NCBI GenBank assembly: GCA_030549845.1
Contig: JAUQQN010000003.1
Coordinates: 1-17,030 of the forward strand
Length of the DNA: 17,030 nt
Direction of reading: 5' to 3'
Source: Patescibacteria group bacterium
Lineage (GTDB): Bacteria > Patescibacteriota > Minisyncoccia > UBA6257 > HR35
This document shows positions 1-17,030 of this stretch, piece after piece. Under the pieces are notes generated by a model that was given only the letters and a program-made list of their open reading frames with translations, did not search any database and was not told where the DNA came from. Position numbers and translations under genes: made by a program. How positions within the stretch are numbered: the stretch's first letter is position 1; every line of letters begins with the position of its first letter.

Positions 1-2592
1 AAAGCTTGATGCTCCTAAATTATATGTATTATCAGAATAAGGAATAATATCTGAGTTTATATATCCTACAAAATTAATAGGAGTTGAGGTTGAAGCTCCT
101 AAAGTTGTAGAACCATATACATGTAATAAAGAAGTAGGTGTTGTAGTTCCTATTCCTATATTGCCATCATCTCTTACATATAATAATGGCTTATTAAGTG
201 AGTTTATTACTTTTAAAGAAAAAGTAGTATCACTGGAGCCAGCTCCCTTAATGAAAAGCTTAGTATTTGTATCTCTAAGAGGAACACCCCCAATCGAAAC
301 AGAACCATAATTATAGCCTGATAACCGCATTACTTCCACTTGAGGGCCATTATATCTCCATAACATGAATCTCATACTAACATATCTTGGCCCATAATCT
401 TCTGCTATAAACTGAATGCTTGCATCTGGAATTGTGGATCCATCACTAAATCTTCCTAAAAAATCTATTCCTGGTGGGTTAGCATTAGTATTGTGTAAAG
501 ACTTTAAAACTAAAGCTGTTCTTTGAACATTTCCTTCAACGGGCATCAGTAGTTCCAAGCTTGGCGTTGAAGTGTTTGAGCTTTTTATTGTAGTTGGAAT
601 GAGAAACCAAGATTTTCCACTACTTGATATTTTATTAATATAGGCAGTAGTAACCGTAGGAACAGTACCAGCAGTGGCTCCAGTTGAGGTAGTATAAGTA
701 TAAGAGGTAGCAGTTGTTGTAAAGTAATGATTTTGAGCATTAGAAGTGGTACCAGCATATAATCTATATTTAGCTGCGCCAATTACCGGTGACCAAGAGA
801 TAATAATAGCTTCACCTGCAGCTATGGTTATCGATACTTCTTGAGAACCAATTGTTGTACCTCCAGCTTCATCCTCTGCTACTACTTTAAAGTAATATGT
901 ACCAGACGGCAATGTCCCTCCAGTAGTTGTGGCAACAGTTACATTGGTAGGAGGTGGCATTTCAATAGCAAAATTCGAACCAGCAGAAATTGTTAATTTC
1001 TCTTGGGGTGCTATTGTTCCTATACCCACGTTACTGTTTAAATATAAACCTGACCCCCCCGCTTGAATCTCAAAGAATCTGCTTGTTTGTAGTTTAAAAT
1101 GAGAACCTCCAATGTCATGTCTTCCTAATTCTAGTGTACCAGCATAACTCCTGGATTCTAAATACAATCTTGGACTTTGACCAGAAAAGGATCCACTAAT
1201 CCCTCCCCACCCTCCTAAAAAAGCTCTATGATTACTATCTCCATAATAGAACCCGCCCGTAAATCCACCAACTGTTGATAGAGGAATATAAATTGTGCCA
1301 AATATTTCAGAAGAAGCAGGGGTAACGGTTAATTTTGCATTAGGATTAGTCATTCCGATGCCTACTCTTCCACTTTGGTCAATTGTAAGTACTGCTGTTG
1401 AGGGGAAGGTGGAAGTGGTAATTTTAAATTTGTTTGAATCTGAAATATCTACTCCTATTGTATATTGAGTAGAAGGAGTAATTCCTGTTCTAAATTGAAT
1501 TTGAGGAGAATATGTTGTTGAAGTTGCAGAAGTTATTGTAAGAATTGGTGATATATTTGTTGAATAGAGTTCTAATAAAGAAGTGGGTGTTGTTGTTCCT
1601 ATTCCTAATCTTTTATTATTATTATCCCAATAAAGATTAGAATTATCTTGAGAGATTAAACCATTATTTCCTGCAAATAATATAGAACCAGGAGTTAAGG
1701 AAGATAAGGCTAAGTTAGCAAATGTTGGTGAAGAGGTAGTTGAGATATCTTGTGGGGTAGATAGTATAATATTTGAACCTACAGAGGATATATTTATTTG
1801 ATTTGGTGTTCCTTGTAAAGTTAAAGCTCCTGTTAAAGAATTTAAGGATAATACTCCTGTATTAGATATTGTTGCTGTAGATGTTCCTGTTATTGATATT
1901 CCTGGGCCTGGTATAAGTAATGAAGTAATATCTTTATATTCTAAGCTTGTTCCTGTATTATTAACTCCTAATATTTGATTAGCTAAACCTAATGTATTAA
2001 GTCCTGTACCTCCTGAAGTTATAGAAAGAGGTGTTAAAAGTACAAGAGAATTAGCTGTTATACCTCCTGTAGCTAATATATTTCCTTGTACTGTAAGTTT
2101 TTCTGAAGGTGTTGTTGTTCCTATAGCTACTGAGTCTGTAATTGTTTGTAATCTAACTACATTTCCATCATCTGTCCAACCTCCTGCTGTAGATAATGTT
2201 ACATCTGCCCATTGAAGATTGCCATTACCTATATATTGTAGGAATTGATTAGGATTAGGAGGATTTGAAGGCCAAATATAAGATATTCCATTAAAAGTTG
2301 TAGTATTTGTTACTATTAATTCTCCTAATATTTTTACTGTTCCTGTATTAAAAGAAAGAAGATTATTATTAAGTTCTACTATTGTTGTAGTAGATATATA
2401 TGTAGGTAAAGGAGGAGATACTGTACAATTAGGATCACCTGGAGAGCAAGAAGGATCTAAGGTTTCTCCTGGTCTATAAGGAGAAATAGGGGGTGAGGAA
2501 TATACTAAGGAGTAGATAAAGAGGAAGATAGTTAAAAATAAGAAGAAAATTCCTATATTTTTGTTAATTTTTACTTTTACATTATTAGGCAT
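1..2592 (-). CDS. Giant secreted tail-fibre-like repeat protein, N-terminal 864 aa; the 3' end runs off the left edge of the window
   Basis: I translated the minus strand line by line. ATG at 2592..2590 is followed by 864 sense codons with no stop down to base 1. It is absent from the ORF track, presumably because there is no in-window stop. N-terminus MPNNVKVKINKNIGIFFLFLTIFLFIYSLVYS looks like a signal peptide or anchor, followed by PGETLDPSCSPGDPNCTV. An SGGTGLNTLG motif is present. There are five G/AIGT-type copies followed by a K/L-L-x-V-like motif: VAIGTTTPSEKLTV, LGIGTTTPTSLLEL, VGIGMTNPNAKLTV, VGIGTIAPQEKLTI, IGIGTTTPTSLLHV. One FN3-like segment is present (PPPTNVTV...ISWSPVIGAAKYRLYAG). 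The visible end is PYSDNTYNLGASSF. Confidence 0.85.
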   Translation of the reverse strand, partial: MPNNVKVKINKNIGIFFLFLTIFLFIYSLVYSSPPISPYRPGETLDPSCSPGDPNCTVSPPLPTYISTTTIVELNNNLLSFNTGTVKILGELIVTNTTTFNGISYIWPSNPPNPNQFLQYIGNGNLQWADVTLSTAGGWTDDGNVVRLQTITDSVAIGTTTPSEKLTVQGNILATGGITANSLVLLTPLSITSGGTGLNTLGLANQILGVNNTGTSLEYKDITSLLIPGPGISITGTSTATISNTGVLSLNSLTGALTLQGTPNQINISSVGSNIILSTPQDISTTSSPTFANLALSSLTPGSILFAGNNGLISQDNSNLYWDNNNKRLGIGTTTPTSLLELYSTNISPILTITSATSTTYSPQIQFRTGITPSTQYTIGVDISDSNKFKITTSTFPSTAVLTIDQSGRVGIGMTNPNAKLTVTPASSEIFGTIYIPLSTVGGFTGGFYYGDSNHRAFLGGWGGISGSFSGQSPRLYLESRSYAGTLELGRHDIGGSHFKLQTSRFFEIQAGGSGLYLNSNVGIGTIAPQEKLTISAGSNFAIEMPPPTNVTVATTTGGTLPSGTYYFKVVAEDEAGGTTIGSQEVSITIAAGEAIIISWSPVIGAAKYRLYAGTTSNAQNHYFTTTATSYTYTTSTGATAGTVPTVTTAYINKISSSGKSWFLIPTTIKSSNTSTPSLELLMPVEGNVQRTALVLKSLHNTNANPPGIDFLGRFSDGSTIPDASIQFIAEDYGPRYVSMRFMLWRYNGPQVEVMRLSGYNYGSVSIGGVPLRDTNTKLFIKGAGSSDTTFSLKVINSLNKPLLYVRDDGNIGIGTTTPTSLLHVYGSTTLGASTSTPINFVGYINSDIIPYSDNTYNLGASSF
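1054..1060. repeat. C7 (G7 on the coding strand) homopolymer inside the tail-fibre-like CDS
   Basis: Plus strand tgaCCCCCCCgc; coding strand CAA GCG GGG GGG TCA (QAGGS). This is one of only two G/C runs of 7 that I saw in the window. Confidence 0.9.
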
Positions 2593-2603
2593 TATTTAAA
2601 TTA

Positions 2604-2628: not shown

Positions 2629-2662
2629 CCTAATAAAGTGGTGGATAAGTTTTTTGGAAGGG

Positions 2663-2735
2663 TGCCCCTGGCAGGACTCGAACCTGCAACCTTCTCCTTA
2701 GGACGGAGACGCTCTTCCTATTAAGCTACAGGGGC
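2663..2735 (-). tRNA. tRNA-Arg (anticodon CCT)
   Basis: Minus strand GCCCCTG-TA-GCTT-AATAGGAA-GAGC-G-TCTCC-GTCCTAA-GGAGA-AGGTT-GCAGG-TTCGAGT-CCTGC-CAGGGGC-A folds as a 73-nt cloverleaf. The T-loop TTCGAGT is canonical. No 3' CCA is encoded. Confidence 0.92.
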
Positions 2736-2744
2736 TACTTAATA

Positions 2745-2753
2745 ATTATATCA
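2745..2753 (-). promoter_or_regulatory. Extended -10 promoter element TGaTATAAT upstream of tRNA-Arg(CCT)
   Basis: Minus strand reads AAGAA-TGaTATAAT-TATTAAGTA-GCCCCTG(tRNA). The hexamer ends 9 nt before the mature tRNA 5' end. Confidence 0.5.
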
Positions 2754-2767
2754 TTCTTGAAAGCTGT

Positions 2768-2807
2768 TTAACATTCTTTTGTTAAATATTCACATTCTTT
2801 TGTTAAA
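2768..2807. repeat. Two direct copies of tt[a/c]acattcttttgttaaa with a 21-bp period, overlapping the -35 and upstream region of the tRNA-Arg(CCT) promoter
   Basis: The 16-mer acattcttttgttaaa occurs at 2771..2786 and 2792..2807. The first copy also forms an inverted repeat, TTTAACA-N6-TGTTAAA. Confidence 0.8.
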
Positions 2808-2934
2808 GAATCTGAGCGGTAATGACATCTAAAAAATTAATATGTAAACATAATTAAATTTTCTGATTCCTTCAAACTTTAATTTTTTAATTTTTCTTCC
2901 AAATTTAAAAAAAATTCTTTTTCTTTTAATTTTT

Positions 2935-2962
2935 CATTTACAATGCTATAGCATTCTAAATG
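2935..2962. repeat. 28-bp near-perfect palindrome (13 of 14 arm pairs)
   Basis: CATTTAcAATGCTA|TAGCATTcTAAATG. The central 14 bp AATGCTATAGCATT (2942..2955) is a perfect palindrome, and the outer 6-bp arms CATTTA/TAAATG also pair. Confidence 0.85.
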
Positions 2963-3033
2963 TACAATCATAAAAGGTTAAAGTTGTGGTAAATAAAATT
3001 TAGAAAGGTATGATAAATAAGATTTTTTGTTAG

Positions 3034-3118
3034 TGCCTGGGGAGGGATTCGAACCCTCACGGCCGTAAAGGCCAGGGGATTTTGAGTCCCCTGCGTCTGC
3101 CAATTCCGCCACCCAGGC
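3034..3118 (-). tRNA. tRNA-Leu (anticodon CAA), class II with long variable arm
   Basis: Minus strand GCCTGGG-TG-GCGGAATTGGCAGACGC-A-GGGGA-CTCAAAA-TCCCC-TGGCCTTTACGGCCGT-GAGGG-TTCGAAT-CCCTC-CCCAGGC-A, 85 nt. No CCA is encoded. It starts 22 nt after the pheT stop codon. Confidence 0.93.
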
Positions 3119-6182: not shown

Positions 6183-7931
6183 TTATTTATTTCTTTTTTC
6201 TATCCTAATTTGTGAATCATAATATGAAATTCTATGTATACCGCCTATATAGATACCTGAAGAATCTACAGTTATTGCACTAGGGTAATCTTCTTGATCA
6301 GATGGATTTTCAATTTTATCCCATATTATATTTAAATTATCTTTCTGAATTTTTAATATTCTCCATTTCCTATCTCCGCCTTCAACTATAGAAGTTATAG
6401 TGTAAATATATTTATCAAAGACCCTAATTTTTCCTGATATATTATTTAAACTGCCTAATAAAGACAGGTTACTACTATTTCTTTTTTCTAATCTTTCACT
6501 TGTCATTACATAAATATTCCCACTATTATCTAAATCTAAGCTTACGAAGGGTTTGTTTGAGGTAGCATAGCTTATTAAGTTATTTAAATTATTTATATCT
6601 CTTTTTTCTAATCTTCCATATATTGACCCACAAGAAGGGTTATTCCAATTGAAATTCCCTACATAGCCTCCTATATATAAATAACTATCTTTCACAACAA
6701 TTTGTGGGTATATATCATAGTCAAAACAAAGACATGTATAACCCGAAGAGCAAGCAGCATAAGGAGTATGTGGATTTATTTGAATAGTTTGGACAGCTGT
6801 TAAATCACTTTTATTTAATTTAGTTATAACCCAATAATAATCTGACGTACCGCCTGCAGATGTATAAACTGTCCTTCTATTCCAGCCGGCTAGATATATA
6901 TAATTACTATCTTGAGCCATTGACCATACAGTTTCCATTGAAGAAATATTTACAGCGCTAACTAAGCTTCCATTTATTTTATCTCTCTTTTCAAGTCTAC
7001 CTGTAACTCCTGACCTCCCCTGCCTGCCCCCAATATAAATATAATCTCTATCTTCGATGACCCCTCCAAATACGCTATCAAAATCATAGGTATTATAATA
7101 AGGGTTTGGATCTGAAGTAGTAGACCATATTATCTCGCCATTTAGTTTTTTTCTTTTTTGAATTACCCATCGCCAATTATCATTTTCGTTTACTTTATTA
7201 TCACCTACTAAGTAAATATAATCATTATCTAAAGCGAGACCTTCGATATCATCCCATAGATTACCCCAATTTTCAGAAAAAGCCCACATTATTTCTCCTG
7301 AAGGTAAAAGTGCTAATTCAAAATCCATCGGAGCTAAGTTTTTATTATTACCAAATTCCAAAAGCCAATGTGCAGTTCCATTATCTTTTCCTGAAATACT
7401 ATCTATTCCTTTATTTTTTTCAGATTCTAAATTAGCTATTAATTCAAATTCTTTACCAGAAGTAGAAACAAAAAAAGCATAAAAATAATTTATATCATTA
7501 ATAGGATCAGTTGGTAGATTGTTTATTCTGAGAATAGGATTTTGAGAAAAATTAACTGGGATCCATCCTTCGCCATTTATATTTGAAGGGTCAGGAGAAC
7601 AATAATACTGATATCCTTGAGGAGGATCTGGTAAATCTGGGTAATCTACTTGACAATTAGTTGTTGCTGATTTAGAAGGTAATGATAAATATATGTAATT
7701 TGATCGTCCTAATGAAATCCTAGGGTCTTCAAGTAAAAAACTTTTCAAAATATTTTCAAGTTTAGAAAGGTTATTTACTCTTAAAAGGTCTCTTGATTCT
7801 TTTGAAAGCTTATCTTTTCTTAATAATTGTGTACTCAATCCTAATAAAGTTGTTACTAATATTAGAAAAATAACTACTTCTAAATAAGTGAACCCTCTTA
7901 AAATCTTCATCTTTTTAAAAAATTTTACCAA
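6183..7931 (-). CDS. Prepilin-type (type IV pilin/pseudopilin-like) protein fused to a roughly 7-bladed SBBP/NHL-like beta-propeller
   Basis: Class III signal motif MKILRG|FTYLEVVIFLILV with Glu at +5. The ORF-track start is a TTG at 7931; the ATG at 7910 gives the canonical short leader and is probably the true start. The pilin-like globular domain shares RVNNL..LE, GWIPVNF, LPTDPIN and GKEFELIANLE with the 12910..15150 protein. Seven repeats follow the pattern D.YIY(I/L).G ... (R/K)(L/I)EKR(D/N)..N(G/L)..(L/I) (GRLEKRDKINGSL, GRLEKRDINNLNNL, ERLEKRNSSNLSL, WVIQKRKKLNGEIIW, WRILKIQKDNLNIIW, ...). Confidence 0.85.
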   Translation of the reverse strand: MVKFFKKMKILRGFTYLEVVIFLILVTTLLGLSTQLLRKDKLSKESRDLLRVNNLSKLENILKSFLLEDPRISLGRSNYIYLSLPSKSATTNCQVDYPDLPDPPQGYQYYCSPDPSNINGEGWIPVNFSQNPILRINNLPTDPINDINYFYAFFVSTSGKEFELIANLESEKNKGIDSISGKDNGTAHWLLEFGNNKNLAPMDFELALLPSGEIMWAFSENWGNLWDDIEGLALDNDYIYLVGDNKVNENDNWRWVIQKRKKLNGEIIWSTTSDPNPYYNTYDFDSVFGGVIEDRDYIYIGGRQGRSGVTGRLEKRDKINGSLVSAVNISSMETVWSMAQDSNYIYLAGWNRRTVYTSAGGTSDYYWVITKLNKSDLTAVQTIQINPHTPYAACSSGYTCLCFDYDIYPQIVVKDSYLYIGGYVGNFNWNNPSCGSIYGRLEKRDINNLNNLISYATSNKPFVSLDLDNSGNIYVMTSERLEKRNSSNLSLLGSLNNISGKIRVFDKYIYTITSIVEGGDRKWRILKIQKDNLNIIWDKIENPSDQEDYPSAITVDSSGIYIGGIHRISYYDSQIRIEKRNK

Positions 7932-9002: not shown

Positions 9003-10580
9003 ATGGATAACAAATCTTATCTAAATCACATAGTGGAAGTATTAATAGCCATAATTTTACTTTCCCTTGTTATAATCCTCCCCTCTCCCTCTTTCTCCCA
9101 AACATCATATAAAGCAAAAATAGCTAATTATCCTATAACTATAGAACTTAAAAAAGAAGATAATAACAAGATTATAGGAAGATATAAGTATGATAAGGTA
9201 GGAAAATGGCTAAAACTTGAAGGAAAAATTCCTACTTCTTCTAATAGAGTAATAATCAATGAATATGATGAAAATGATAAAAATACAGGATATTTTATAG
9301 GAATATTATCTAAGGATAAAACAAGCATTAAACTATTAAGTTGGATAGATAAAATAAATAAGAATAGAAGATTAAAAGTATATTCTCCTTTAATTAGGTT
9401 GTTAGAAGAAAAATCTTCTAAGATTAGAAAATATAAGTTAGGGGATTATGATCGGATTTATAATATTTATCTTTCTATCTCTGAGAAGTATTCTAATATT
9501 GGGGTAAAATATGGAAGAAAAGATAATAAATATTATATCCAAATAAATGATAAAACTTATGGGCCTTATGATTATGTTCAAGAATTAACTTTCTCCCCTG
9601 ATAGCTCTAAGTATGGATTTATGTATAAAAAAGAGAATGAATATTATATTAATGAATATTATATTCAAATCAATGATAAAACTTATGGGCCCTATGATGA
9701 TGCTTGGTGGTTAACTTTCTCTCCTGATAGCTCTAAGTATGGATTTATGTATAAAAAAGAGAATGAATATTATATTAATGAATATTATATTCAAATCAAT
9801 GATAAAACTTATGGACCTTATGATAATGCTTGGTTGTTAATTTTCTCTCCTGATAGTTCTAAGTATATGTTTGTGTATAAAAAAGATAATAAAGCTTACA
9901 TTCAAATCAATGATAAAACTTATGGGCCCTATGATAATGCTTGGTGGTTAACTTTCTCTCCTGATAGTTCTAAGTATGGATTTGTGTATGAAAAAGATAA
10001 CAAATATTATATTCAAATCAATGATAAAACTTATGGGCCCCATGATAATGCTTGGGAGTTAACTTTCTCTCCTGATAGTTCTAAGTATGGATTTGTGTAT
10101 GAAAAAGATAATAAAGCTTACATTCAAATCAATGATAAAACTTATGGACCTTATGATAATGCTTGTTGGTTAACTTTCTCCCCTGATAGCTCTAAGTATG
10201 GATTTTGGTATAAAAAAGATGATAAATATTACATTCAATTAAATGATAAAACTTATGGACCTTATGATGATGCTTGGTGGTTAACTTTCTCTCCTGATAG
10301 CTCTAAGTATGGATTTATGTATAAAAAAGATGATAAATATTACATTCAATTAAATGATAAAACTTATGGGCCTTATGATTATGCTTGGTGGTTAACTTTC
10401 TCTCCTGATAGTTCTAAGTATGGATTTATGTATAAAAAAGGTAATAAAGAATATATTCAAATAAATGACAAAACCTATGGGCCTTATGATAAAGAAGCAA
10501 CTTTTACTTTTACAAAAGACAATAGAACATTTATAGGATATGTTAAGGGTAAAGATTTAATTATTGAAGAAATAGAATAA
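9003..10580 (+). CDS. Signal-anchored tandem-repeat protein with nine PD40-like (FSPD-motif, TolB-type beta-propeller-like) repeats
   Basis: N-terminal hydrophobic segment IVEVLIAIILLSLVIILPSPSFSQ. Eight near-identical units YYIQINDKTYGPYD.AWWLTFSPDSSKYGF.YKKDNK are followed by one degenerate unit. The F-S-P-D-(S/G)-x-K-x-x-F spacing and the 37-aa period resemble PD40 repeats. Confidence 0.85.
   Translation: MDNKSYLNHIVEVLIAIILLSLVIILPSPSFSQTSYKAKIANYPITIELKKEDNNKIIGRYKYDKVGKWLKLEGKIPTSSNRVIINEYDENDKNTGYFIGILSKDKTSIKLLSWIDKINKNRRLKVYSPLIRLLEEKSSKIRKYKLGDYDRIYNIYLSISEKYSNIGVKYGRKDNKYYIQINDKTYGPYDYVQELTFSPDSSKYGFMYKKENEYYINEYYIQINDKTYGPYDDAWWLTFSPDSSKYGFMYKKENEYYINEYYIQINDKTYGPYDNAWLLIFSPDSSKYMFVYKKDNKAYIQINDKTYGPYDNAWWLTFSPDSSKYGFVYEKDNKYYIQINDKTYGPHDNAWELTFSPDSSKYGFVYEKDNKAYIQINDKTYGPYDNACWLTFSPDSSKYGFWYKKDDKYYIQLNDKTYGPYDDAWWLTFSPDSSKYGFMYKKDDKYYIQLNDKTYGPYDYAWWLTFSPDSSKYGFMYKKGNKEYIQINDKTYGPYDKEATFTFTKDNRTFIGYVKGKDLIIEEIE
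9531..10577 (+). repeat. In-frame tandem DNA repeat array: 2 x 126 bp, 6 x 111 bp, plus one degenerate terminal unit
   Basis: Unit starts are 9531, 9657, 9783, 9894, 10005, 10116, 10227, 10338 and 10449. Units share long identical stretches such as caatgataaaacttatgg and ttaactttctctcctgatag.tctaagtatggattt. Confidence 0.9.
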
Positions 10581-10641: not shown

Positions 10642-10727
10642 GCCCGGGTGGCGGAATTGGTAGACGCGTTGGGCTTAAAACCCAATGGCCTACATAGGCT
10701 GTGAGGGTTCGAATCCCTCCCCGGGCA
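10642..10727 (+). tRNA. tRNA-Leu (anticodon TAA), class II
   Basis: GCCCGGG-TG-GCGGAATTGGTAGACGC-G-TTGGG-CTTAAAA-CCCAA-TGGCCTACATAGGCTGT-GAGGG-TTCGAAT-CCCTC-CCCGGGC-A, 86 nt. No CCA is encoded. Confidence 0.93.
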
Positions 10728-10731
10728 AATA

Positions 10732-10815
10732 CCAGGGGTGGCGGAGTGGACAAACGCACCTGGCTGTAAACCAGGCGCCCTCGTGGCTGCGCAGGTTCGA
10801 ATCCTGCCCCCTGGA
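10732..10815 (+). tRNA. tRNA-Tyr (anticodon GTA), class II with long variable arm and a C1:G72 first pair
   Basis: CCAGGGG-TG-GCGGAGTGGACAAACGC-A-CCTGG-CTGTAAA-CCAGG-CGCCCTCGTGGCTGC-GCAGG-TTCGAAT-CCTGC-CCCCTGG-A, 84 nt. It starts 4 nt after tRNA-Leu. The D-loop GAGTGGACAAA resembles E. coli tRNA-Tyr GAGCGGCCAAA. Confidence 0.9.
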
Positions 10816-10834
10816 AATGAACAAAGAAATCCTA

Positions 10835-10843
10835 TGCTAAAAT
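10835..10843 (+). promoter_or_regulatory. Extended -10-like element TGcTAAAAT
   Basis: cctaTGcTAAAATag lies 20 nt downstream of tRNA-Tyr. I found no clear -35. Confidence 0.3.
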
Positions 10844-10906
10844 AGTTTTGAAGATGGCAAAAGAAATGATAAATAAGATTAAAAAACTAAGAAAAAACTA
10901 GAAGTA

Positions 10907-10915
10907 TGATAAAAT
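10907..10915 (+). promoter_or_regulatory. Extended -10-like element TGaTAAAAT upstream of tRNA-Arg(TCG), topA and rplT
   Basis: gtaTGaTAAAATtattttagattcataa-GCCCCCA(tRNA). The hexamer ends 16 nt before the tRNA 5' end. Confidence 0.4.
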
Positions 10916-10931
10916 TATTTTAGATTCATAA

Positions 10932-11004
10932 GCCCCCATAGCTCAATTGGAAGAGCGGGTGGCTTCGGACCACCAGGTTGCAGGTTCGAGTCCTGCTGGG
11001 GGCT
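10932..11004 (+). tRNA. tRNA-Arg (anticodon TCG)
   Basis: GCCCCCA-TA-GCTC-AATTGGAA-GAGC-G-GGTGG-CTTCGGA-CCACC-AGGTT-GCAGG-TTCGAGT-CCTGC-TGGGGGC-T, 73 nt. The T-arm is identical to that of tRNA-Arg(CCT). No CCA is encoded. Confidence 0.9.
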
Positions 11005-11011
11005 TTTTTAA

Positions 11012-12596: not shown

Positions 12597-12941
12597 ATGG
12601 TAAGAGTAAAAAGAGGAAAAATAAAAACAAAGAAAAGAAAAAAGTTGTTAAGATTAGCTAAGGGTTATAAATGGGGTAGAAAAAGTAAAGAGAAGTTTGC
12701 TAAAGAAGCTATTTTGCATGCATTTAAACATGCCTATGAAGGAAGAAAAAAGAAAAAAAGAGATTTTAGAAGATTATGGCAAATTAGGTTGAATGCATTT
12801 TTGAGAGAAAGAGGATTAAAGTATTCTACTTTTATAAAAAAACTAAAAGATAATAACATAAAGTTAAATAGAAAAATTTTAGCTGAGCTTTCTATGAATT
12901 ATCCTACAATTATGGAAGAAATCGTAAATTCTGTAAAATAG
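12597..12941 (+). CDS. rplT: 50S ribosomal protein L20
   Basis: MVRVKRGKIKTKKRKKLLRLAKGYKWGRKS...AYEGRKKKKRDFRRLWQIRLNA...LKYSTFIKKLKDNNIKLNRKILAEL is the characteristic L20 sequence. It starts 10 nt after the topA stop codon. Confidence 0.95.
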   Translation: MVRVKRGKIKTKKRKKLLRLAKGYKWGRKSKEKFAKEAILHAFKHAYEGRKKKKRDFRRLWQIRLNAFLRERGLKYSTFIKKLKDNNIKLNRKILAELSMNYPTIMEEIVNSVK

Positions 12942-15150
12942 GTTGTAATATTTTGAAAATATTTGAAAAGTTATTTAGTTGATATGGTAATGATAAACAG
13001 TTAGGGCAGTTTCCATTTTCATCTATTTTCATAATAAAACCTCCTTTGCTAAAGTTATATCCTGCGATTATTAAATCTTTATCTATTGCATTTATTATTT
13101 TGTTAAGAAAACTAGAGGGATATAGTTTATAAGTAGACAATTTTGCAGAAGATATAGATAATATTCCTTGATTATTATATTTACCTACTCCATAGAAACT
13201 GTTTTTATAATTAGCAAAAGATCTTATTTCTAAATTACAAAAACTTTCACAAATAGGTATAAAGTTATACATTTCATTATTTAAAATTTCAAAGCTATCT
13301 GGTTTTATTTTTATTACTCTATAATATAAATTATTATTTTCTTTAAATTTCACTAAAATATAATAACTATTTTCTATCTCTGAAGGTAGAATAGAAAGAG
13401 CTTCAGCATTTGATATCGTTAAACAATTTAATACATCACCACTATCATCAATTTTCCCTACCCATCCTTCAGCTAAGGTTTGTCCGACTAGAAGATAAAA
13501 AACATTCGATCCTTCTTGAAAGATTTTAATATCATTAAGTTTCTGGGGCGAATAACAGATACTGGATGAGGTTGAAACTCGATAATTAAAAATTTGGCCT
13601 GTTGAAGAACTGATTTTAAAAACATAAGCTGAACTTGTGGTCTCTCCTACTCCGATGTAATTACCATCACTTGTTCTTTCTAAAGATTTAATCGAAGAAT
13701 AATTTTCTAAAGTAGATGTGGAAATCCATTTTATTGATCCTGTAGAAGAAATTTTTACTGCTAAGGCGGTATTTTCATAAAAACCCCCAAAAATATAATG
13801 ATCAACATATTTATCTCCATTTTCATCTACTGGTAATACAGAAATAAATATACTTGTTGTTACATTCTGTAGGTTAATAGTAGAAGATAAAAGAACATTA
13901 CCAAATACATCAATTTTTGCCCACCATGGAAGTGTAGTTGTAGAATTAATCTTTTTGCCTCCTGCTACGATATAATATTTTTCAAATTTTTCATCAGAGA
14001 TTTTAACATCATAAGGATAAGTATCTAAACCAAAAAACCGTATCCAAGGTTCTGTATTAAAAGGACAACCATAGGCTTCCATTTCACAAACATGAGCATT
14101 TGATCCCCAACCTACAGCCCATGCATTTGTTATATCATTAATAGAAGTAGTTGTGAAATCATAACATTCTCTATATGGGCTTTCAATCCCTGATGTCCAT
14201 GTGGCATTTTTATAATATTTAATATATGGAGCATTCCCTTGTGCGCTAAAGGATGAATATACTTTTAGATAAGAAAGAAAGTAAGGCCTACTGAATTTAT
14301 GTGCTACATAATAAGTAAGAATTGATAATGAAGTGGAAGTGGACCCATCATGAACAGCTGTAGTATCAGTAGGGATAACTTCATTATTATTATCGAACAA
14401 AAGCCATTGGCCTTCAGTAATTTTTATAGGATTCAAACAAGAAAAACTAGCACCATTTGGGTAACTAGGAAATTTTAGTATCGGAGCTTGCTTACAGGTT
14501 GTAGTAGTTATTTCACCATATAATCTATTTCCAACTATTAAACATTTATTGGTCCCAGCCTCATAAATTTCATTATCACTTCCTCCATCTTTTGAAGTTT
14601 TATCTTGTTTTCCTCCATATTTGTTTTCTGAATATTCTAAGTTTGCATTTAATTCAAATTCCTTTGTGCCTCTTGAAAATGCATAAGTATAAAAAAATCC
14701 TGAAGAGTAAGAGTTGATTGGATCAATAGGTAAATAAGTTATTGGCGATGTTTTTAGCTCAGTAAAATTTATGGGGATCCAACCTAAGCCATTTATTTCT
14801 CTTAACAAAGTAGATGAAGAATTCTGAATAATATTCCAAGTTTTACCATTAGCATCTGTAATTGTTGTTGAAGGAATGGGTTCTTTATCATAAGGAATAG
14901 ATACAAAAATTGAAGGAAATGCTTCGTCATAACCTGTAGAATTGTAATTACCATCTAAATCAGCATAAGGGTTTGTTAAAAGATAAGCATTAATTGCAAG
15001 CTCAAGATTTTTAAGATCATTTACCCTTTGAAAGTCTCTATTTCTTTTAAAAAGCTCTATAGGATTAAGAAAATAAAAAAGAATACCCAGAACTGATATT
15101 ATAGCGGTTAATACTATTAAAATTTCAATTAAAGTAAAACCGCTTTTCAT
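12910..15150 (-). CDS. Prepilin-type protein with a pilin-like globular domain, a discoidin/jelly-roll-like middle domain and a roughly 7-bladed SBBP/NHL-like beta-propeller (746 aa)
   Basis: Leader MKSG|FTLIEILIVLTAI with Glu at +5. RVNDLKNLE, GWIPINF, LPIDPIN and TKEFELNANLE are collinear with the 6183..7931 protein. The middle segment ends ...HVCEMEAYGC, which resembles an F5/8 type C domain end. Blade-like repeats include YYIVAGG...WWAKIDVFGNVL, HYIFGGF...LAVKISSTGSIKW, NYIGVGE...YVFKISSSTGQI, YLLVGQT...WVGKIDDSGDVL and LIIAGYN...GFIMKIDENGNC. Confidence 0.85.
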   Translation of the reverse strand: MKSGFTLIEILIVLTAIISVLGILFYFLNPIELFKRNRDFQRVNDLKNLELAINAYLLTNPYADLDGNYNSTGYDEAFPSIFVSIPYDKEPIPSTTITDANGKTWNIIQNSSSTLLREINGLGWIPINFTELKTSPITYLPIDPINSYSSGFFYTYAFSRGTKEFELNANLEYSENKYGGKQDKTSKDGGSDNEIYEAGTNKCLIVGNRLYGEITTTTCKQAPILKFPSYPNGASFSCLNPIKITEGQWLLFDNNNEVIPTDTTAVHDGSTSTSLSILTYYVAHKFSRPYFLSYLKVYSSFSAQGNAPYIKYYKNATWTSGIESPYRECYDFTTTSINDITNAWAVGWGSNAHVCEMEAYGCPFNTEPWIRFFGLDTYPYDVKISDEKFEKYYIVAGGKKINSTTTLPWWAKIDVFGNVLLSSTINLQNVTTSIFISVLPVDENGDKYVDHYIFGGFYENTALAVKISSTGSIKWISTSTLENYSSIKSLERTSDGNYIGVGETTSSAYVFKISSSTGQIFNYRVSTSSSICYSPQKLNDIKIFQEGSNVFYLLVGQTLAEGWVGKIDDSGDVLNCLTISNAEALSILPSEIENSYYILVKFKENNNLYYRVIKIKPDSFEILNNEMYNFIPICESFCNLEIRSFANYKNSFYGVGKYNNQGILSISSAKLSTYKLYPSSFLNKIINAIDKDLIIAGYNFSKGGFIMKIDENGNCPNCLSLPYQLNNFSNIFKILQPILQNLRFLP

Positions 15151-17030
15151 TTATAAGCCCTTATCCTACCTTCTAAAAATATACTATCATCATAAAGATT
15201 AAGATGAAGAATTCTTGCGTACACATCGAAATCTTTAATGTTAGCTTGGAACCATTCTGCACTTTCTACTTGAGCAGAGCCTGGGATACCTAATCCGATA
15301 TATGATCTAGCATCATCTAAATCAAAAGGTATATACTGTAAGGCAGTTAAATAGATTTTTGAACAAGTTTTAGCTACTTGTATAGTAGTTGTACCTATAG
15401 AACTAATTTGGATCATCGAGTTTATTTGATTATCGCAATATATCTTTATCATTCCAGCTTGCACTAAGTTTCTTACAATTAACTTAAGATGGTTAACATA
15501 AGTTGGGCTACCAAAATCTAGTTTCCAGACCAAATATTCAGTATAATTAGCTACTGAATTATAGCCTGTTATTCTAGAAATCCAAGTACGTAATATATAT
15601 CCTGTATAATCAATTTCATTTTCTCGAGTTGTGATAGCGATAGCATCACTTAATGGACCTTCTCCTATCTCATTTACCGCAGAAACTTTATAATAATAAG
15701 TCGTACTTGTAGATAGATTTTGATCAACATAAGTATTTGTTAAAGGTTGTGCTACCAAGGTATAATCAACCCCATTTGTGCTTCTAAAAAGTTTATAATA
15801 AAGAATTGGATAACCTCCGGTACAGAGAGGATTTTCAGGATAAGTTATGCAATTCCAATTTAATCGAACAAAGTTACTCCCATAATCTGAAACCATTATT
15901 GAAAATTGGCCTGGTTTTGTCCCTGCTTTTTTGCACACTTCATTACTGTATCCACTTTCTCCATTTGCATTTTTAGCTGTTACAACATAACAATAAGTCC
16001 TTCCGATATTTACATTTGTATCTTGAAAAGAAAGTTGAGAAGATGAAACTATTGCATAAGGTGTATTTGAATAGCTTTGTCCTAATTCTTTTCTATAAAT
16101 TCTATATTCTGTTATTGAAGAACCACCATTATCTGCAGGTGGGATCCAAGAAAGATTTAATACTCTATCACCTACTGTAATATTTAAGCTCTGTGGGGGT
16201 GATGGAAGCCCATAAGGAGTACCAGAAGCTATATTACTATAAGATCCTTCACCAACGCTATTTACTCCAGAAACAGCATAGTAATATGCTCTGCCAGGAG
16301 TTAGATTCTGGTGGATATAGGTTCGAATTGATGAAGAAGTTGTCGCTATTCTATAGTATTGATTATTAATAACTTGATATACATTGTAATAGAGAATAGG
16401 TAGCGAACTTGAAGCTTGAGTCCAGGATAAAGTGTTTTGTCTATTTCCAGGAGTTACTGTAAGAGACGGAGCTCCAGGAACACCAGGAGCTATGCATGCT
16501 TCGTTAGACGGTAAACTTTCACCTATAGAATTTACAGCTGTAACCTTATAACAATATTTATCATCTGGAGAACCTAAATTATCATAAAAATAAAAGTTTG
16601 TTGTGGTACCTGCAAGATTATAACTTCCTGAATCTGTAATTTTTCTGTAGATGTTATAATAAAGAATTGTACTTCCACCATTGGATGATGGTTCTTCCCA
16701 AGTTAAGTATCTTATAGGTATGGGATTATATGTAACAGTTAAATTTCTAGGAGGGGATGGCACTGTTGTTGTATTTATTGTACATGAAATTAACTCTATT
16801 TGATTAATTGTATTTTTAATATCATTCGATAACAAGTTAAGATTACGAATAGATAATGCAGATAAATCAAGATTTAAAAGGGTGTTTTTATCAATTTCTG
16901 TTGTAACTATTTGATTCCTTACGTTTTGAACTATAATGGAAGTGGTAGGATAGTTATTGGATTGGAATTTGAGATCAGGTTTATAAGGGATTCCATAAGT
17001 TGCTGGATCTAATTTTATTAAAACAATATC
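15147..17030 (-). CDS. Surface protein with four tandem fibronectin type III domains and a 159-aa C-terminal domain; the 5' end is open at the right window edge
   Basis: The track ORF starts at a TTG (16835), but I checked the same frame and it stays open for all 65 codons from 17030 (DIVLIKLDPATYGIPYKPDLKF...SIRNLN-LLSNDIK). The true start is therefore probably outside the window. FN3 hallmarks occur four times, for example PSPPRNLTV...LTWEEP..NGGS.ILYYNIYR...YCYKVTAVNSIGES and P.SLNITVGDRVLNLSWIPPADNGGSSITEYRIYR...YCYVVTAKNANGES. The stop TGA overlaps the next ATG as ATGA at 15147..15150. Confidence 0.85.
   Translation of the reverse strand, partial: DIVLIKLDPATYGIPYKPDLKFQSNNYPTTSIIVQNVRNQIVTTEIDKNTLLNLDLSALSIRNLNLLSNDIKNTINQIELISCTINTTTVPSPPRNLTVTYNPIPIRYLTWEEPSSNGGSTILYYNIYRKITDSGSYNLAGTTTNFYFYDNLGSPDDKYCYKVTAVNSIGESLPSNEACIAPGVPGAPSLTVTPGNRQNTLSWTQASSSLPILYYNVYQVINNQYYRIATTSSSIRTYIHQNLTPGRAYYYAVSGVNSVGEGSYSNIASGTPYGLPSPPQSLNITVGDRVLNLSWIPPADNGGSSITEYRIYRKELGQSYSNTPYAIVSSSQLSFQDTNVNIGRTYCYVVTAKNANGESGYSNEVCKKAGTKPGQFSIMVSDYGSNFVRLNWNCITYPENPLCTGGYPILYYKLFRSTNGVDYTLVAQPLTNTYVDQNLSTSTTYYYKVSAVNEIGEGPLSDAIAITTRENEIDYTGYILRTWISRITGYNSVANYTEYLVWKLDFGSPTYVNHLKLIVRNLVQAGMIKIYCDNQINSMIQISSIGTTTIQVAKTCSKIYLTALQYIPFDLDDARSYIGLGIPGSAQVESAEWFQANIKDFDVYARILHLNLYDDSIFLEGRIRAYK
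15627..16760 (-). other. Array of four FN3 domains (about 94 aa each) within the 15147..17030 CDS
   Basis: Boundaries were derived from the protein coordinates (aa 26-403 of the track ORF) using the repeated P..P..L ... W ... Y.(I/V)YR ... Y.Y.V.A.N..GE pattern. Confidence 0.75.

What the first reader, a model, noticed from the sequence alone, without database searches (positions are those of the whole stretch)
12910..15150. Second, larger pilin fusion: prepilin leader, pilin domain, discoidin-like domain and 7-bladed propeller
This protein is paralogous to the 6183..7931 protein through the leader and pilin-like domain. The shared motifs R(V)N(N/D)L..LE, GWIP(V/I)NF, LP.DPIN and KEFEL.ANLE occur in the same order. 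It also carries an extra segment of about 140 aa (aa 225-362) ending HVCEMEAYGC, reminiscent of F5/8 type C carbohydrate-binding domains. Its seven blades use a different sequence (G..(K/A)(I/V)(D/S)..G). Two divergent binding heads on the same pilin chassis suggest a modular family of pilus-presented adhesins with different ligands.
Basis: partly seen in the sequence, partly recalled or inferred. Interest (0 to 1): 0.65.

Follow-up and report, generated by a model that had tools for sequence, protein, structure and literature searches.

The report
Three-module type IV pilin adhesin candidate
This gene from an ultrasmall Patescibacteria (CPR) bacterium encodes a pilus subunit carrying a sugar-binding-type domain and a seven-bladed propeller, probably a pilus-displayed adhesin; it is a real but fairly ordinary new member of the known class of "modular pilins".

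Summary
Window 12910-15150 (-) is a 746-aa ORF with three modules.

- **Pilin module (aa 1-225):** canonical prepilin N-terminus, MKSG|FTLIE.
- **Middle cassette (aa 226-365):** 140 aa, with a discoidin/CBM32-like fold.
- **Propeller (aa 366-720):** seven blades.

The pilin module is paralogous to that of the 6183-7931 protein (34% identity over 202 aa, E = 4e-23). AlphaFold2 and Foldseek support all three folds. The discoidin call rests on fold and motif only. Pfam F5_F8_type_C does not match.

The "modular family" reading is right and understated. This pilin chassis has 1,618 representative clusters (at 50% identity) at E <= 1e-30. It is found fused to LamG, FN3 arrays, Ig-like domains and several propeller types.

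The gene is translationally coupled (ATGA overlap) to an upstream FN3-rich gene. In relatives that gene is a ~1,900-aa protein starting with the same chassis. The gene pair and its rplT-topA neighbours are conserved in Paceibacteria-type MAGs.

Most likely this is a minor modular pilin displayed on type IV pili for attachment to host surface glycans. That function is inferred, not shown.

Modular pilins (Raynaud 2021) and lectin-like jelly-roll and propeller minor pilins in Saccharibacteria (PMC11623550) are already described. This is therefore a new member of a known kind.

The parts
12910..15150 (-). Complete gene for the 746-aa trimodular pilin (pilin module, CBM32-like module, seven-bladed propeller, C-terminal tail)
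   Evidence: ORF list. There are ten full-length homologues at 35-97% identity.
15139..15150 (-). Leader peptide MKSG (aa 1-4), with the predicted prepilin-peptidase cleavage site G4|F5
   Evidence: The sequence reads MKSG|FTLIEIL, with Gly at -1, Phe at +1 and Glu at +5. TIGR02532 IV_pilin_GFxxxE scores 17.3 bits against a cut-off of 16.3. G4, F5, T6 and E9 are invariant in 11 homologues.
14476..15150 (-). Pilin module (aa 1-225): alpha-1 helix plus beta-sheet head, ending in the invariant Cys203...Cys219 loop
   Evidence: AF2 model: helices at aa 7-28 and 30-59, strands between aa 80 and 199, block pLDDT mostly 77-96. The module profile hits solved pilins and GspG at E = 2e-5 to 3e-3. BLASTP against the window paralogue gives E = 4e-23.
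14056..14475 (-). Discoidin/CBM32-like beta-sandwich cassette (aa 226-365), including a disordered linker at about aa 220-235 and the C-terminal strand motif CEMEAYGC
   Evidence: AF2 pLDDT is about 88-94 for aa 240-365. Foldseek hits CBM32 and F5/8 type C structures at E = 4e-6 to 1e-4, with TM up to 0.67. The cassette is absent from P0005 and P0006.
12991..14055 (-). Seven-bladed beta-propeller (aa 366-720), a diverged DUF5122-like type
   Evidence: The model has 28 strands with pLDDT about 75-90. Foldseek TM to seven-bladed YncE is 0.70-0.73. hhalign against the DUF5122 pilin propellers gives probability 98.3% and E = 1.7e-14; the reversed-sequence control gives 0.5%.
13801..13827 (-). Putative Ca2+-binding loop D442-E-N-G-D446-K-Y-V-D450 (FG-GAP / DxNxDxxxD type) in blade 2
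   Evidence: D442 and D450 are invariant and D446 is at least 90% conserved. PF13517 FG-GAP_3 hits 6 of 11 homologues, best E = 1.1e-5. The target itself has no Pfam hit here, so this rests on the motif only.
12910..13008 (-). Invariant C715-P-N-C718 at the end of the last blade, followed by a conserved tail (predicted helix aa 729-740) ending LRFLP and the stop codon
   Evidence: C715, C718, F732, I738, L742, F744 and P746 are invariant. AF2 places a helix at aa 729-740 with pLDDT below 45. Function is unknown. The last 32 nt overlap rplT on the opposite strand.
15147..17030 (-). 3' part of the upstream FN3-rich gene (at least 627 aa, running off the window). It overlaps the target start by ATGA. 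Its orthologues are ~1,900-aa modular pilins with the same chassis
   Evidence: The frame is open to position 17030. Pfam finds four fn3 stretches. It is 40% identical to the C-terminal 640 aa of the 1,933-aa protein in L001, E = 2e-128. The L001 and L003 proteins start MNRPRG|FTLIEIL and MKKG|FTLIEIL and carry the GWLPINF and LP.DP.N motifs. The ATGA overlap was read directly.
6183..7931 (-). Paralogous 582-aa pilin fusion with the same chassis (aa 1 to about 229) and a different repeat head (about seven YIYxGG...RLEKRD..NG repeats)
   Evidence: BLASTP. The chassis HMM hits it at E = 1e-64. Repeats are listed. The head is not detectably related to the target's propeller. Its fold was not modelled.
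12597..12941 (+). rplT (ribosomal protein L20), convergent with the target; the two 3' ends overlap by 32 nt (12910-12941)
   Evidence: ORF and sequence. The same arrangement is seen in L001, L003, L004 and L009-L011.

Best explanation
The gene encodes a trimodular minor type IV pilin of a Patescibacteria (Paceibacteria-like) bacterium.

**Shown by sequence or model**
- A class III signal peptide, MKSG|FTLIE.
- A hydrophobic alpha-1N helix continuing into a roughly 53-residue alpha-1, with a beta-sheet head (aa 1-225).
- A disordered linker.
- A discoidin/CBM32-like beta-sandwich (aa 226-365).
- A seven-bladed DUF5122-like propeller (aa 366-720). It carries one FG-GAP-type acidic loop and a conserved CxxC plus helical tail.

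**Inferred mechanism**
1. Prepilin peptidase removes the 4-residue leader.
2. The alpha-1 helix first anchors the protein in the membrane. It then docks into the helical core of a type IV pilus.
3. The 520-residue head is too bulky for the shaft. The subunit therefore most likely sits at the tip, or sparsely along the filament on its flexible linker.
4. There the lectin-type domain and the propeller bind surface glycans or proteins of a host cell. Pilus retraction would then pull the episymbiont onto its host.
5. The protein is made together with a giant FN3-rich modular pilin from the translationally coupled upstream gene. The two may act on the same filament.

Across orthologues the chassis is conserved (59-65% identity) while the heads diverge fast (25-34%). 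That pattern fits a constant assembly module carrying variable ligand-recognition modules.

The confidence of 0.6 is for the whole statement. The structural identity as a modular pilin is about 0.9. The adhesin function on pili is about 0.55-0.6.
For: **Pilin identity**
- The N-terminal motif passes the TIGR02532 cut-off.
- G4, F5, T6, E9 and P30 are invariant.
- AF2 gives alpha-1 plus a beta-sheet head at high pLDDT.
- The module profile hits solved T4 pilins and GspG at E = 2e-5 to 3e-3.
- Sources name homologues PulG-like pseudopilin or prepilin-type protein.

**Head folds**
- CBM32/discoidin fold.
- Seven-bladed propeller.
- DUF5122-like propeller by hhalign, with a reversed-sequence control.
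- FG-GAP_3 hits in 6 of 11 homologues.

**Modularity**
- The cassette is absent from P0005 and P0006.
- The same chassis carries LamG, FN3, Ig-like, PQQ-like propeller, DUF2341 and Big_7 domains.
- There are 1,618 cluster representatives at E <= 1e-30.

**Operon**
- ATGA overlap with the upstream gene.
- The gene pair and its rplT-topA neighbours are conserved. Where its 5' end could be read (L001 and L003), the upstream gene starts with the same chassis.

**Divergence by domain**.

**Precedent**
- Modular pilins PilB and PilC of S. sanguinis act as adhesins or lectins (PMC8179133, PMC9934059).
- TM7x PilX2 is a propeller minor pilin needed for efficient host binding, and PilX1 is a jelly-roll minor pilin (PMC11623550).
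- Type IV pili are reported as nearly universal in Patescibacteria (PMC11623550).
Against: - No pilus machinery gene (pilB, pilC, pilD, pilM/N/O) and no major pilin lies in the window or in the fetched flanks of relatives. Assembly into a filament is therefore not shown for this organism.
- PF07963 N_methyl scores below its gathering cut-off (14.5 against 21.2 bits).
- The lectin assignment has no sequence-level support, and no binding residues could be identified.
- Propeller similarity is generic. The top Foldseek hit, CylK, is an enzyme, and YncE binds DNA.
- The full-length model is only moderate (mean pLDDT 64, pTM 0.52). The relative orientation of the domains is unknown.
- No expression or localisation data exist.
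Confidence: 0.6

Rival explanations
1. Surface-anchored binding protein that uses a pilin-type signal but is not a filament subunit. Archaeal sugar-binding proteins with class III signal peptides (the Sulfolobus "bindosome") work this way. Under this reading the alpha-1 helix only tethers a glycan-capturing head to the cell surface, for nutrient scavenging.
For: The head is carbohydrate-binding-type. No pilus genes lie nearby. The gene sits among housekeeping genes (rplT, topA, pheST). The bindosome analogy comes from general knowledge and was not tested here.
Against: The full pilin globular head is strongly conserved, with 59-65% identity against 25-34% for the propeller. It has invariant surface motifs (GW.PINF, LP.DP.N, DGG). 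That argues for a conserved assembly interface rather than a mere anchor. E9 (mature Glu5), typical of filament subunits, is invariant among the 11 full-length homologues. Experimental precedent in Patescibacteria places such proteins with pili (PMC11623550).
Confidence: 0.15
2. Pilus- or surface-displayed enzyme. The propeller would be catalytic (for example a glycosidase, lyase or alkylating enzyme), with the CBM32-like module targeting it to a polysaccharide substrate such as the host cell wall.
For: CBM32 modules are usually appended to glycoside hydrolases (hits). The best propeller hit is the enzyme CylK at E = 3e-9. Modular pilins with predicted peptidase modules exist (PMC8179133).
Against: Invariant propeller residues are mostly Gly, Tyr, Lys and Asp of the repeat scaffold and the acidic loop. 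No candidate catalytic constellation stands out. The CylK match has low TM (0.36-0.41) and 13% identity. There are no Pfam or NCBIfam enzyme hits. Propeller sequence diverges fast (25-34% identity), which is unusual for an active site scaffold.
Confidence: 0.1
3. Pseudopilin of a type II secretion or competence (Com) system, as some database labels suggest (PulG). It would act in secretion or DNA uptake rather than adhesion.
For: Sources name homologues "type II secretory pathway pseudopilin PulG". There is a weak GspG match over alpha-1. The YncE-like propeller can bind DNA.
Against: The GspG and ComG models score far below their cut-offs (15-18 bits against 70-89), and they match only the shared alpha-1. 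A 520-aa head is not a feature of GspG or ComGC. The labels are automatic. The YncE similarity is a generic seven-blade fold at 10-11% identity.
Confidence: 0.05

Closest known systems
Modular type IV pilins (Raynaud et al. 2021, PMC8179133): S. sanguinis PilB (pilin + vWA) and PilC (pilin + ConA-like lectin; PMC9934059)
   Same: An N-terminal class III signal and a small pilin module, joined by a short linker to bulky modules not specific to pili. The proposed role is pilus-presented ligand binding. Many of the catalogued architectures come from CPR phyla.
   Different: This protein has three modules, not two. Neither extra module is recognised by Pfam in the target, so it would have been missed by that InterPro-based census. 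The pilin module is a larger (~225 aa) CPR-type chassis with its own conserved motifs. No experimental data exist.
Saccharibacteria TM7x minor pilins PilX2 (seven-bladed RCC1 propeller) and PilX1 (beta-jelly-roll), PMC11623550
   Same: A Patescibacteria pilin carrying a lectin-like jelly-roll and/or a seven-bladed propeller. Deleting pilX2 halves host binding, which is the best functional precedent.
   Different: Here both fold types are on one polypeptide. The propeller is DUF5122-like, not RCC1. [quoted passage not shown] The lineage differs (Paceibacteria-like). Sequence relatedness to PilX1 and PilX2 was not tested.
PilY1 / PilC tip adhesins of Pseudomonas and Neisseria
   Same: A propeller (seven-bladed in PilY1, per PMC11623550) associated with the pilus tip. 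PilY1 is also reported there to bind calcium, and the target has a candidate acidic loop.
   Different: PilY1 is not a pilin and needs a minor-pilin complex to be presented. Here the propeller is fused directly to a pilin module. No Pfam PilC/PilY1 domain match was found.
CBM32 / F5-8 type C (discoidin) domains, e.g. C. perfringens GH89 CBM32-6 (4a42) and NanJ CBM32 (2v72)
   Same: A beta-sandwich of about 130 aa. Foldseek gives E = 4e-6 and TM 0.55-0.67. Two motifs resemble discoidin motifs I recalled from memory and did not check against a reference: the C-terminal strand E-M-E-A-Y-G and an early HDG.TST stretch.
   Different: No sequence-profile match to Pfam or to PDB CBM32 chains. Sugar-binding residues were not identified. 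The domain sits between a pilin and a propeller rather than on a glycosidase.

Membership tests
Type IV pilin / type IV filament subunit | Class III signal peptide: short polar leader ending in Gly, then about 20 hydrophobic residues with Glu at mature position 5 | tested here: met
   The sequence is MKSG|FTLIEILIVLTAIISVLGILFYFLNP. TIGR02532 scores 17.3 bits against a cut-off of 16.3. G4, F5, T6 and E9 are invariant. Pfam N_methyl is below its cut-off (14.5 against 21.2 bits).
Type IV pilin / type IV filament subunit | Long N-terminal alpha-1 helix packed against an antiparallel beta-sheet ("lollipop" fold) | tested here: met
   The AF2 model of aa 1-370 has helices at aa 7-28 and 30-59 and strands between aa 80 and 199, with block pLDDT mostly 77-96. 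The Foldseek listing showed only CBM32 hits, so no structural superposition on a solved pilin was obtained.
Type IV pilin / type IV filament subunit | Sequence relatedness to known pilins | tested here: met
   Profile A4 against PDB: geopilin 2e-5, GspG 2.7e-4, PilA (6xxd) 9e-4, PilE1 (8pfb) 3e-3. All matches lie over alpha-1 only.
Type IV pilin / type IV filament subunit | Processing by prepilin peptidase and polymerisation by a pilus machinery encoded in the same genome | not testable with these tools
   No machinery genes lie in the window or fetched flanks. The genome is not available. The literature says type IV pili are nearly universal in the phylum (PMC11623550).
Modular pilins (sensu Raynaud et al. 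2021) | A pilin module linked to one or more independent domains not specific to pilus biology | tested here: met
   There is a disordered linker at aa 220-235, followed by the CBM32-like and propeller domains. The cassette is present or absent between homologues. The same chassis carries other heads.
F5/8 type C (discoidin, PF00754) / CBM32 | Match to the family's sequence model | tested here: not met
   No Pfam hit for the target or for 10 isolated mid-domains, even at E <= 10. The profile against PDB sequences gives no CBM32 hit.
F5/8 type C (discoidin, PF00754) / CBM32 | Galactose-binding-domain-like beta-sandwich fold | tested here: met
   Foldseek returns 109 PDB hits at E <= 1e-3, and the 50 best shown are dominated by CBM32, factor V/VIII C2 and neuropilin b1. 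The best domain hit is 4a42 at E = 4e-6 and TM 0.67.
F5/8 type C (discoidin, PF00754) / CBM32 | Carbohydrate (or lipid/protein) binding by the apical loops | not testable with these tools
   This needs binding assays or a ligand-bound structure.
DUF5122 (PF17164) beta-propeller | Match to the repeat model | tested here: inconclusive
   The target has no Pfam hit, and 2 of 11 homologues hit at E about 0.1. However, profile-profile comparison against the PF17164-positive pilin propellers P0018-22 gives probability 98.3% and E = 1.7e-14 over 305 columns. The reversed-sequence control gives 0.5%.
Seven-bladed beta-propeller (fold) | Seven four-stranded blades closing a ring | tested here: met
   There are 28 strands between aa 370 and 709. 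TM is 0.70-0.73 to seven-bladed YncE and 0.64-0.68 to WDR5. Seven K-I-D/S-x-x-G-type motifs recur at a period of about 50 aa.
PilY1/PilC tip adhesin | PilC/PilY1 C-terminal propeller domain model, on a protein that is not itself a pilin | tested here: not met
   There is no such Pfam hit, and the protein is itself a pilin.

The most novel reading that the evidence does not exclude
The translationally coupled pair (a ~1,900-aa FN3/propeller modular pilin plus this CBM32-propeller pilin) may form a dedicated heteromeric pilus-tip "grappling" complex. A third, LamG pilin beyond topA in relatives could be part of the same set. On this reading, a CPR-specific pilin chassis with at least 1,600 clusters at 50% identity is the phylum's main platform for swapping host-recognition heads, so head type would predict host range. 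The invariant CxxC-helix-LRFLP tail would be a new docking or sorting element.
Probability: 0.2. Interest if true: 0.65.

Novelty: new member of a known kind. Interest (0 to 1): 0.4.

Why it matters
How ultrasmall Patescibacteria recognise and hold on to their hosts is still largely open. The only genetic evidence so far comes from Saccharibacteria. This locus gives a concrete candidate in a different, uncultivated lineage: a pilin carrying a lectin-type domain and a propeller, co-encoded with a giant FN3 pilin.

The same ~225-aa pilin chassis carries many different heads across at least 1,600 sequence clusters. Pfam recognises nothing in this protein except a sub-threshold match to the N-terminal methylation motif. 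InterPro-based censuses of modular pilins would therefore miss architectures like this one.

A profile for the chassis would let head repertoires be catalogued across CPR genomes and compared with host associations.

Tried and rejected
1. **Sequence tests of the discoidin domain.** Pfam on the whole protein, on 11 homologues and on 10 isolated mid-domains at E <= 10 gave no F5_F8_type_C hit. A mid-domain profile against PDB sequences also gave nothing. The assignment therefore rests on fold.
2. **Second discoidin-like domain in the upstream gene.** I asked whether the C-terminal domain of the upstream FN3 protein is related to the mid-domain. hhalign probability was 3-10%. The first run included one mis-framed row, and the repeat without it gave the same answer. 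Rejected.
3. **Are the two window heads distant homologues?** My first hhalign run mixed the paralogue with the DUF5122 proteins and looked positive. Separating them showed the signal comes from P0018-22 only. The paralogue's head alone gives 0.2-0.5%. I withdrew that claim.
4. **N-terminus of the upstream gene in this lineage.** Contigs carrying the exact protein (5 kb) or the 97% relative (7.4 kb) are too short.
5. **First structure job.** An 11-sequence alignment left the pilin module at pLDDT 25-55. A second job on aa 1-370 with 28 sequences fixed this.
6. **Structural match of the pilin module to a solved pilin.** Foldseek on that model lists only CBM32-type hits in its top 50. No direct superposition on a solved pilin was obtained.
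7. **Non-coding features.** Rfam and tRNA scans found five tRNAs and no other RNA family match in the window.
Full report
**What is at the coordinates**

Window 12910-15150 holds a 746-aa ORF on the minus strand, starting at ATG. The window is AT-rich, with GC around 0.22-0.38 in 1-kb windows.

- Its start overlaps the stop of the upstream gene by ATGA...TAT AAA TGA / ATG AAA AGC GGT TTT ACT.
- Its last 32 nt overlap the 3' end of rplT, which is convergent.
- The other neighbours are a topA-type topoisomerase, three tRNAs, a repeat protein, a DAG-kinase-like gene, recR, the 582-aa paralogue, pheS, pheT, two more tRNAs, and a large ORF that runs off the left end.

**Checking the observation**

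BLASTP between the two window proteins gives 34% identity over 202 columns (aa 4-204 against aa 13-199), E = 4e-23. The paralogy of leader plus pilin-like domain is therefore formally significant.

The blade motif exactly as written has no literal match. A looser core, K-[IV]-[DS]-x-x-G preceded by hydrophobic residues, recurs seven times at a period of about 50 aa. It is clear in four blades and degenerate in three.

**Pilin module**

- The N-terminus is MKSG|FTLIEILIVLTAIISVLGILFYFLNP. It has Gly at -1, Phe at +1, Glu at +5, a hydrophobic stretch and a helix-breaking Pro.
- TIGR02532 passes its cut-off (17.3 against 16.3 bits). Pfam N_methyl does not (14.5 against 21.2 bits).
- In 11 full-length homologues G4, F5, T6, E9 and P30 are invariant.
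- A profile of the module (A4, 17 sequences) hits solved pilins and GspG over alpha-1 at E = 2e-5 to 3e-3.
- With 28 aligned sequences, AlphaFold2 models aa 1-370 at mean pLDDT 83.7. It shows helices at aa 7-28 and 30-59, a beta-sheet head up to about aa 200, a disordered linker at aa 220-235, and then a second domain.
- Cys203 and Cys219 are invariant. They bracket a 15-residue loop at the end of the module. Whether this is a D-region-like disulfide loop is an inference.

**Middle module**

- P0005 and P0006 share the pilin module (65-71% identity) and the propeller but lack target aa 226-365. The segment is therefore a discrete cassette.
- Its model (pLDDT about 88-94) matches CBM32 and F5/8 type C domains. 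Examples are CpGH89 CBM32-6 (E = 4e-6, TM 0.67), NanJ CBM32, factor VIII C2, neuropilin b1 and APC10.
- No sequence model recognises it. I call it discoidin/CBM32-like by fold, not a member of PF00754.

**Propeller**

- The full-length model has mean pLDDT 64, but about 75-90 over aa 240-715. It shows 28 strands between aa 370 and 709, which is seven four-stranded blades.
- Foldseek gives TM 0.70-0.73 to seven-bladed YncE and 0.64-0.68 to WDR5. The lowest E-values are to the propeller enzyme CylK.
- Profile-profile comparison links it to the PF17164 (DUF5122) propellers carried by other pilins of this chassis: probability 98.3%, E = 1.7e-14 over 305 columns. A reversed-sequence control gives 0.5%.
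- One loop, D442-x-N-x-D446-x-x-x-D450, has the FG-GAP/EF-hand spacing and is conserved. FG-GAP_3 hits 6 of 11 homologues. Calcium binding is inferred only.
- After the last blade comes an invariant CxxC and a conserved tail ending LRFLP (predicted helix aa 729-740). It is modelled with low confidence and its role is unknown.

**Family and context**

- Ten full-length homologues (35-97% identity) and many chassis-only relatives exist. Named relatives are Patescibacteria: Pacebacteria, Paceibacter, Parcubacteria.
- The 97% relative sits in a MAG labelled Thermoplasmata archaeon. Its neighbours are bacterial rplT and the FN3 gene, so the contig is probably mis-binned.
- A full HMMER scan of 1.84 billion representatives with the chassis profile gives 1,618 proteins at E <= 1e-30 and 3,923 at E <= 1e-10. 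Most listed hits are 400-430 aa, and a sampled 417-aa member is chassis + LamG. Lengths range from about 200 to 1,933 aa.
- Sampled heads include LamG, FN3 arrays, HYDIN-type Ig, PQQ/BamB-like propellers, DUF2341 and Big_7.
- Synteny is conserved in L001 and L003: cysS, a giant FN3 protein, the target orthologue, rplT (convergent) and topA. L003, L004 and L002 also carry a LamG pilin beyond topA.
- In L001 and L003 the giant FN3 protein (1,933 and 1,914 aa) itself begins with the same chassis.
- The window's truncated upstream ORF is 40% identical to the C-terminal 640 aa of the L001 protein, E = 2e-128. It is therefore very likely the 3' part of such a giant pilin. Its N-terminus could not be read in this lineage.
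- A chassis HMM finds exactly two complete copies in the window, and three per locus in L002 and L003.
- Against orthologues, the pilin module keeps 59-65% identity, the mid-domain 25-57% and the propeller 25-34%.

**The two heads in the window**

The paralogue's head has about seven YIYxGG...RLEKRD..NG repeats. It shows no profile similarity to the target's propeller or to the DUF5122 group (0.2-0.5%). An earlier positive result came from the DUF5122 sequences pooled with it, and I withdrew it. That the paralogue's head is a propeller was not verified.

**Mechanism**

The folds and the signal are shown. The rest is inferred:

- cleavage by prepilin peptidase;
- incorporation into type IV pili, probably at the tip because of the 520-aa head;
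- binding of host-surface glycans or proteins by the CBM32-like domain and propeller;
- possible cooperation with the co-translated giant FN3 pilin.

Support comes from published work:

- Modular pilins are widespread and are proposed to be tip-exposed. S. sanguinis PilB is an adhesin (PMC8179133). PilC carries a concanavalin A-like lectin module and belongs to a glycan-binding minor-pilin complex (PMC8179133, PMC9934059).
- In Saccharibacteria TM7x, the propeller minor pilin PilX2 is needed for efficient host binding, and PilX1 carries a lectin-like jelly-roll (PMC11623550).

Rivals are a non-filament surface tether (0.15), a displayed enzyme (0.10), and a T2SS/Com pseudopilin (0.05).

**Novelty and verdict**

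The finding is real and correctly read. It belongs to a described class. What is new is limited to four points:

- the particular three-module architecture, which Pfam does not detect;
- the conserved coupling to a giant modular pilin;
- the size of the chassis family;
- the unexplained conserved tail.

I rate it a new member of a known kind, with interest 0.4.

Noticed in passing
window 12910-12941; also L001 10267-10298 and L003 9828-9859: The pilin gene and rplT converge, and their 3' ends overlap by 32 nt. The overlap is conserved in relatives (38 nt in L002). The invariant C-terminal L(R/K)F(L/P)P of the pilin is encoded antisense to the last L20 codons. Dual-coding constraint may explain part of its conservation. 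There is also no room for separate terminators.
   Followed up: partly
window 12910-13008 (aa 715-746 of the target): An invariant CxxC at the end of the last blade is followed by a conserved tail of about 25 aa (predicted helix aa 729-740). It is present in all 11 full-length homologues. P0006 has the same CxxC and an LLFLP end, and P0013/P0014 of the ~1,085-aa chassis proteins have a similar CxxC-plus-tail. AF2 confidence is low and function is unknown.
   Followed up: partly
window 15147-17030 (-); L001 2199-8000; L003 1881-7625: The upstream FN3-rich gene runs off the window. In relatives it is a 1,914-1,933-aa protein that begins with the same pilin chassis. Behind the chassis come Ig-like domains, FN3 arrays, a repeat region with KxDxxGNIxWSK-type motifs like the target's blades, and a C-terminal domain of unknown type.
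   Followed up: yes
L002 4221-9904: In this 57.9-kb contig the giant FN3 pilin gene is split into at least seven small ORFs, while the target orthologue is intact. The giant gene is probably a pseudogene there, so the two partners may not be strictly co-dependent.
   Followed up: no
window 9003-10580 (+): A 525-aa protein with an N-terminal hydrophobic segment and about 9 near-identical repeats (YYIQINDKTYGPYD.AWWLTFSPDSSKYGF.YKK). The underlying DNA array at 9776-10492 has period 111, 6.5 copies and 90% matches. It gives only a sub-threshold NCBIfam TmcD_fam match (133 bits against a cut-off of 440). Beyond topA, L002, L003 and L004 carry a LamG pilin where the window has tRNA genes and then this gene.
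   Followed up: partly
window 1-2595 (-): A large ORF (at least 864 aa) runs off the left end of the window. It has an N-terminal hydrophobic segment and no Pfam match. It is probably another secreted or surface protein.
   Followed up: partly
L011 (GCA_038831315.1, contig JAWBKQ010000055.1): The 97%-identical orthologue lies in a MAG labelled "Thermoplasmata archaeon". The contig carries a bacterial-type rplT, and all other named relatives are Patescibacteria. It is most likely a mis-binned contig. Co-binning of an episymbiont with an archaeal host is a speculative alternative.
   Followed up: partly
P0028 (697 aa): This protein has three separate matches to the chassis profile plus a LamG domain. 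That suggests the globular pilin head can also occur in tandem copies within one protein.
   Followed up: no
window 2661-3118 (-) and 10642-11005 (+): Five tRNA genes were found: Arg-CCT, Leu-CAA, Leu-TAA, Tyr-GTA and Arg-TCG. Three of them sit between the repeat protein and topA.
   Followed up: yes
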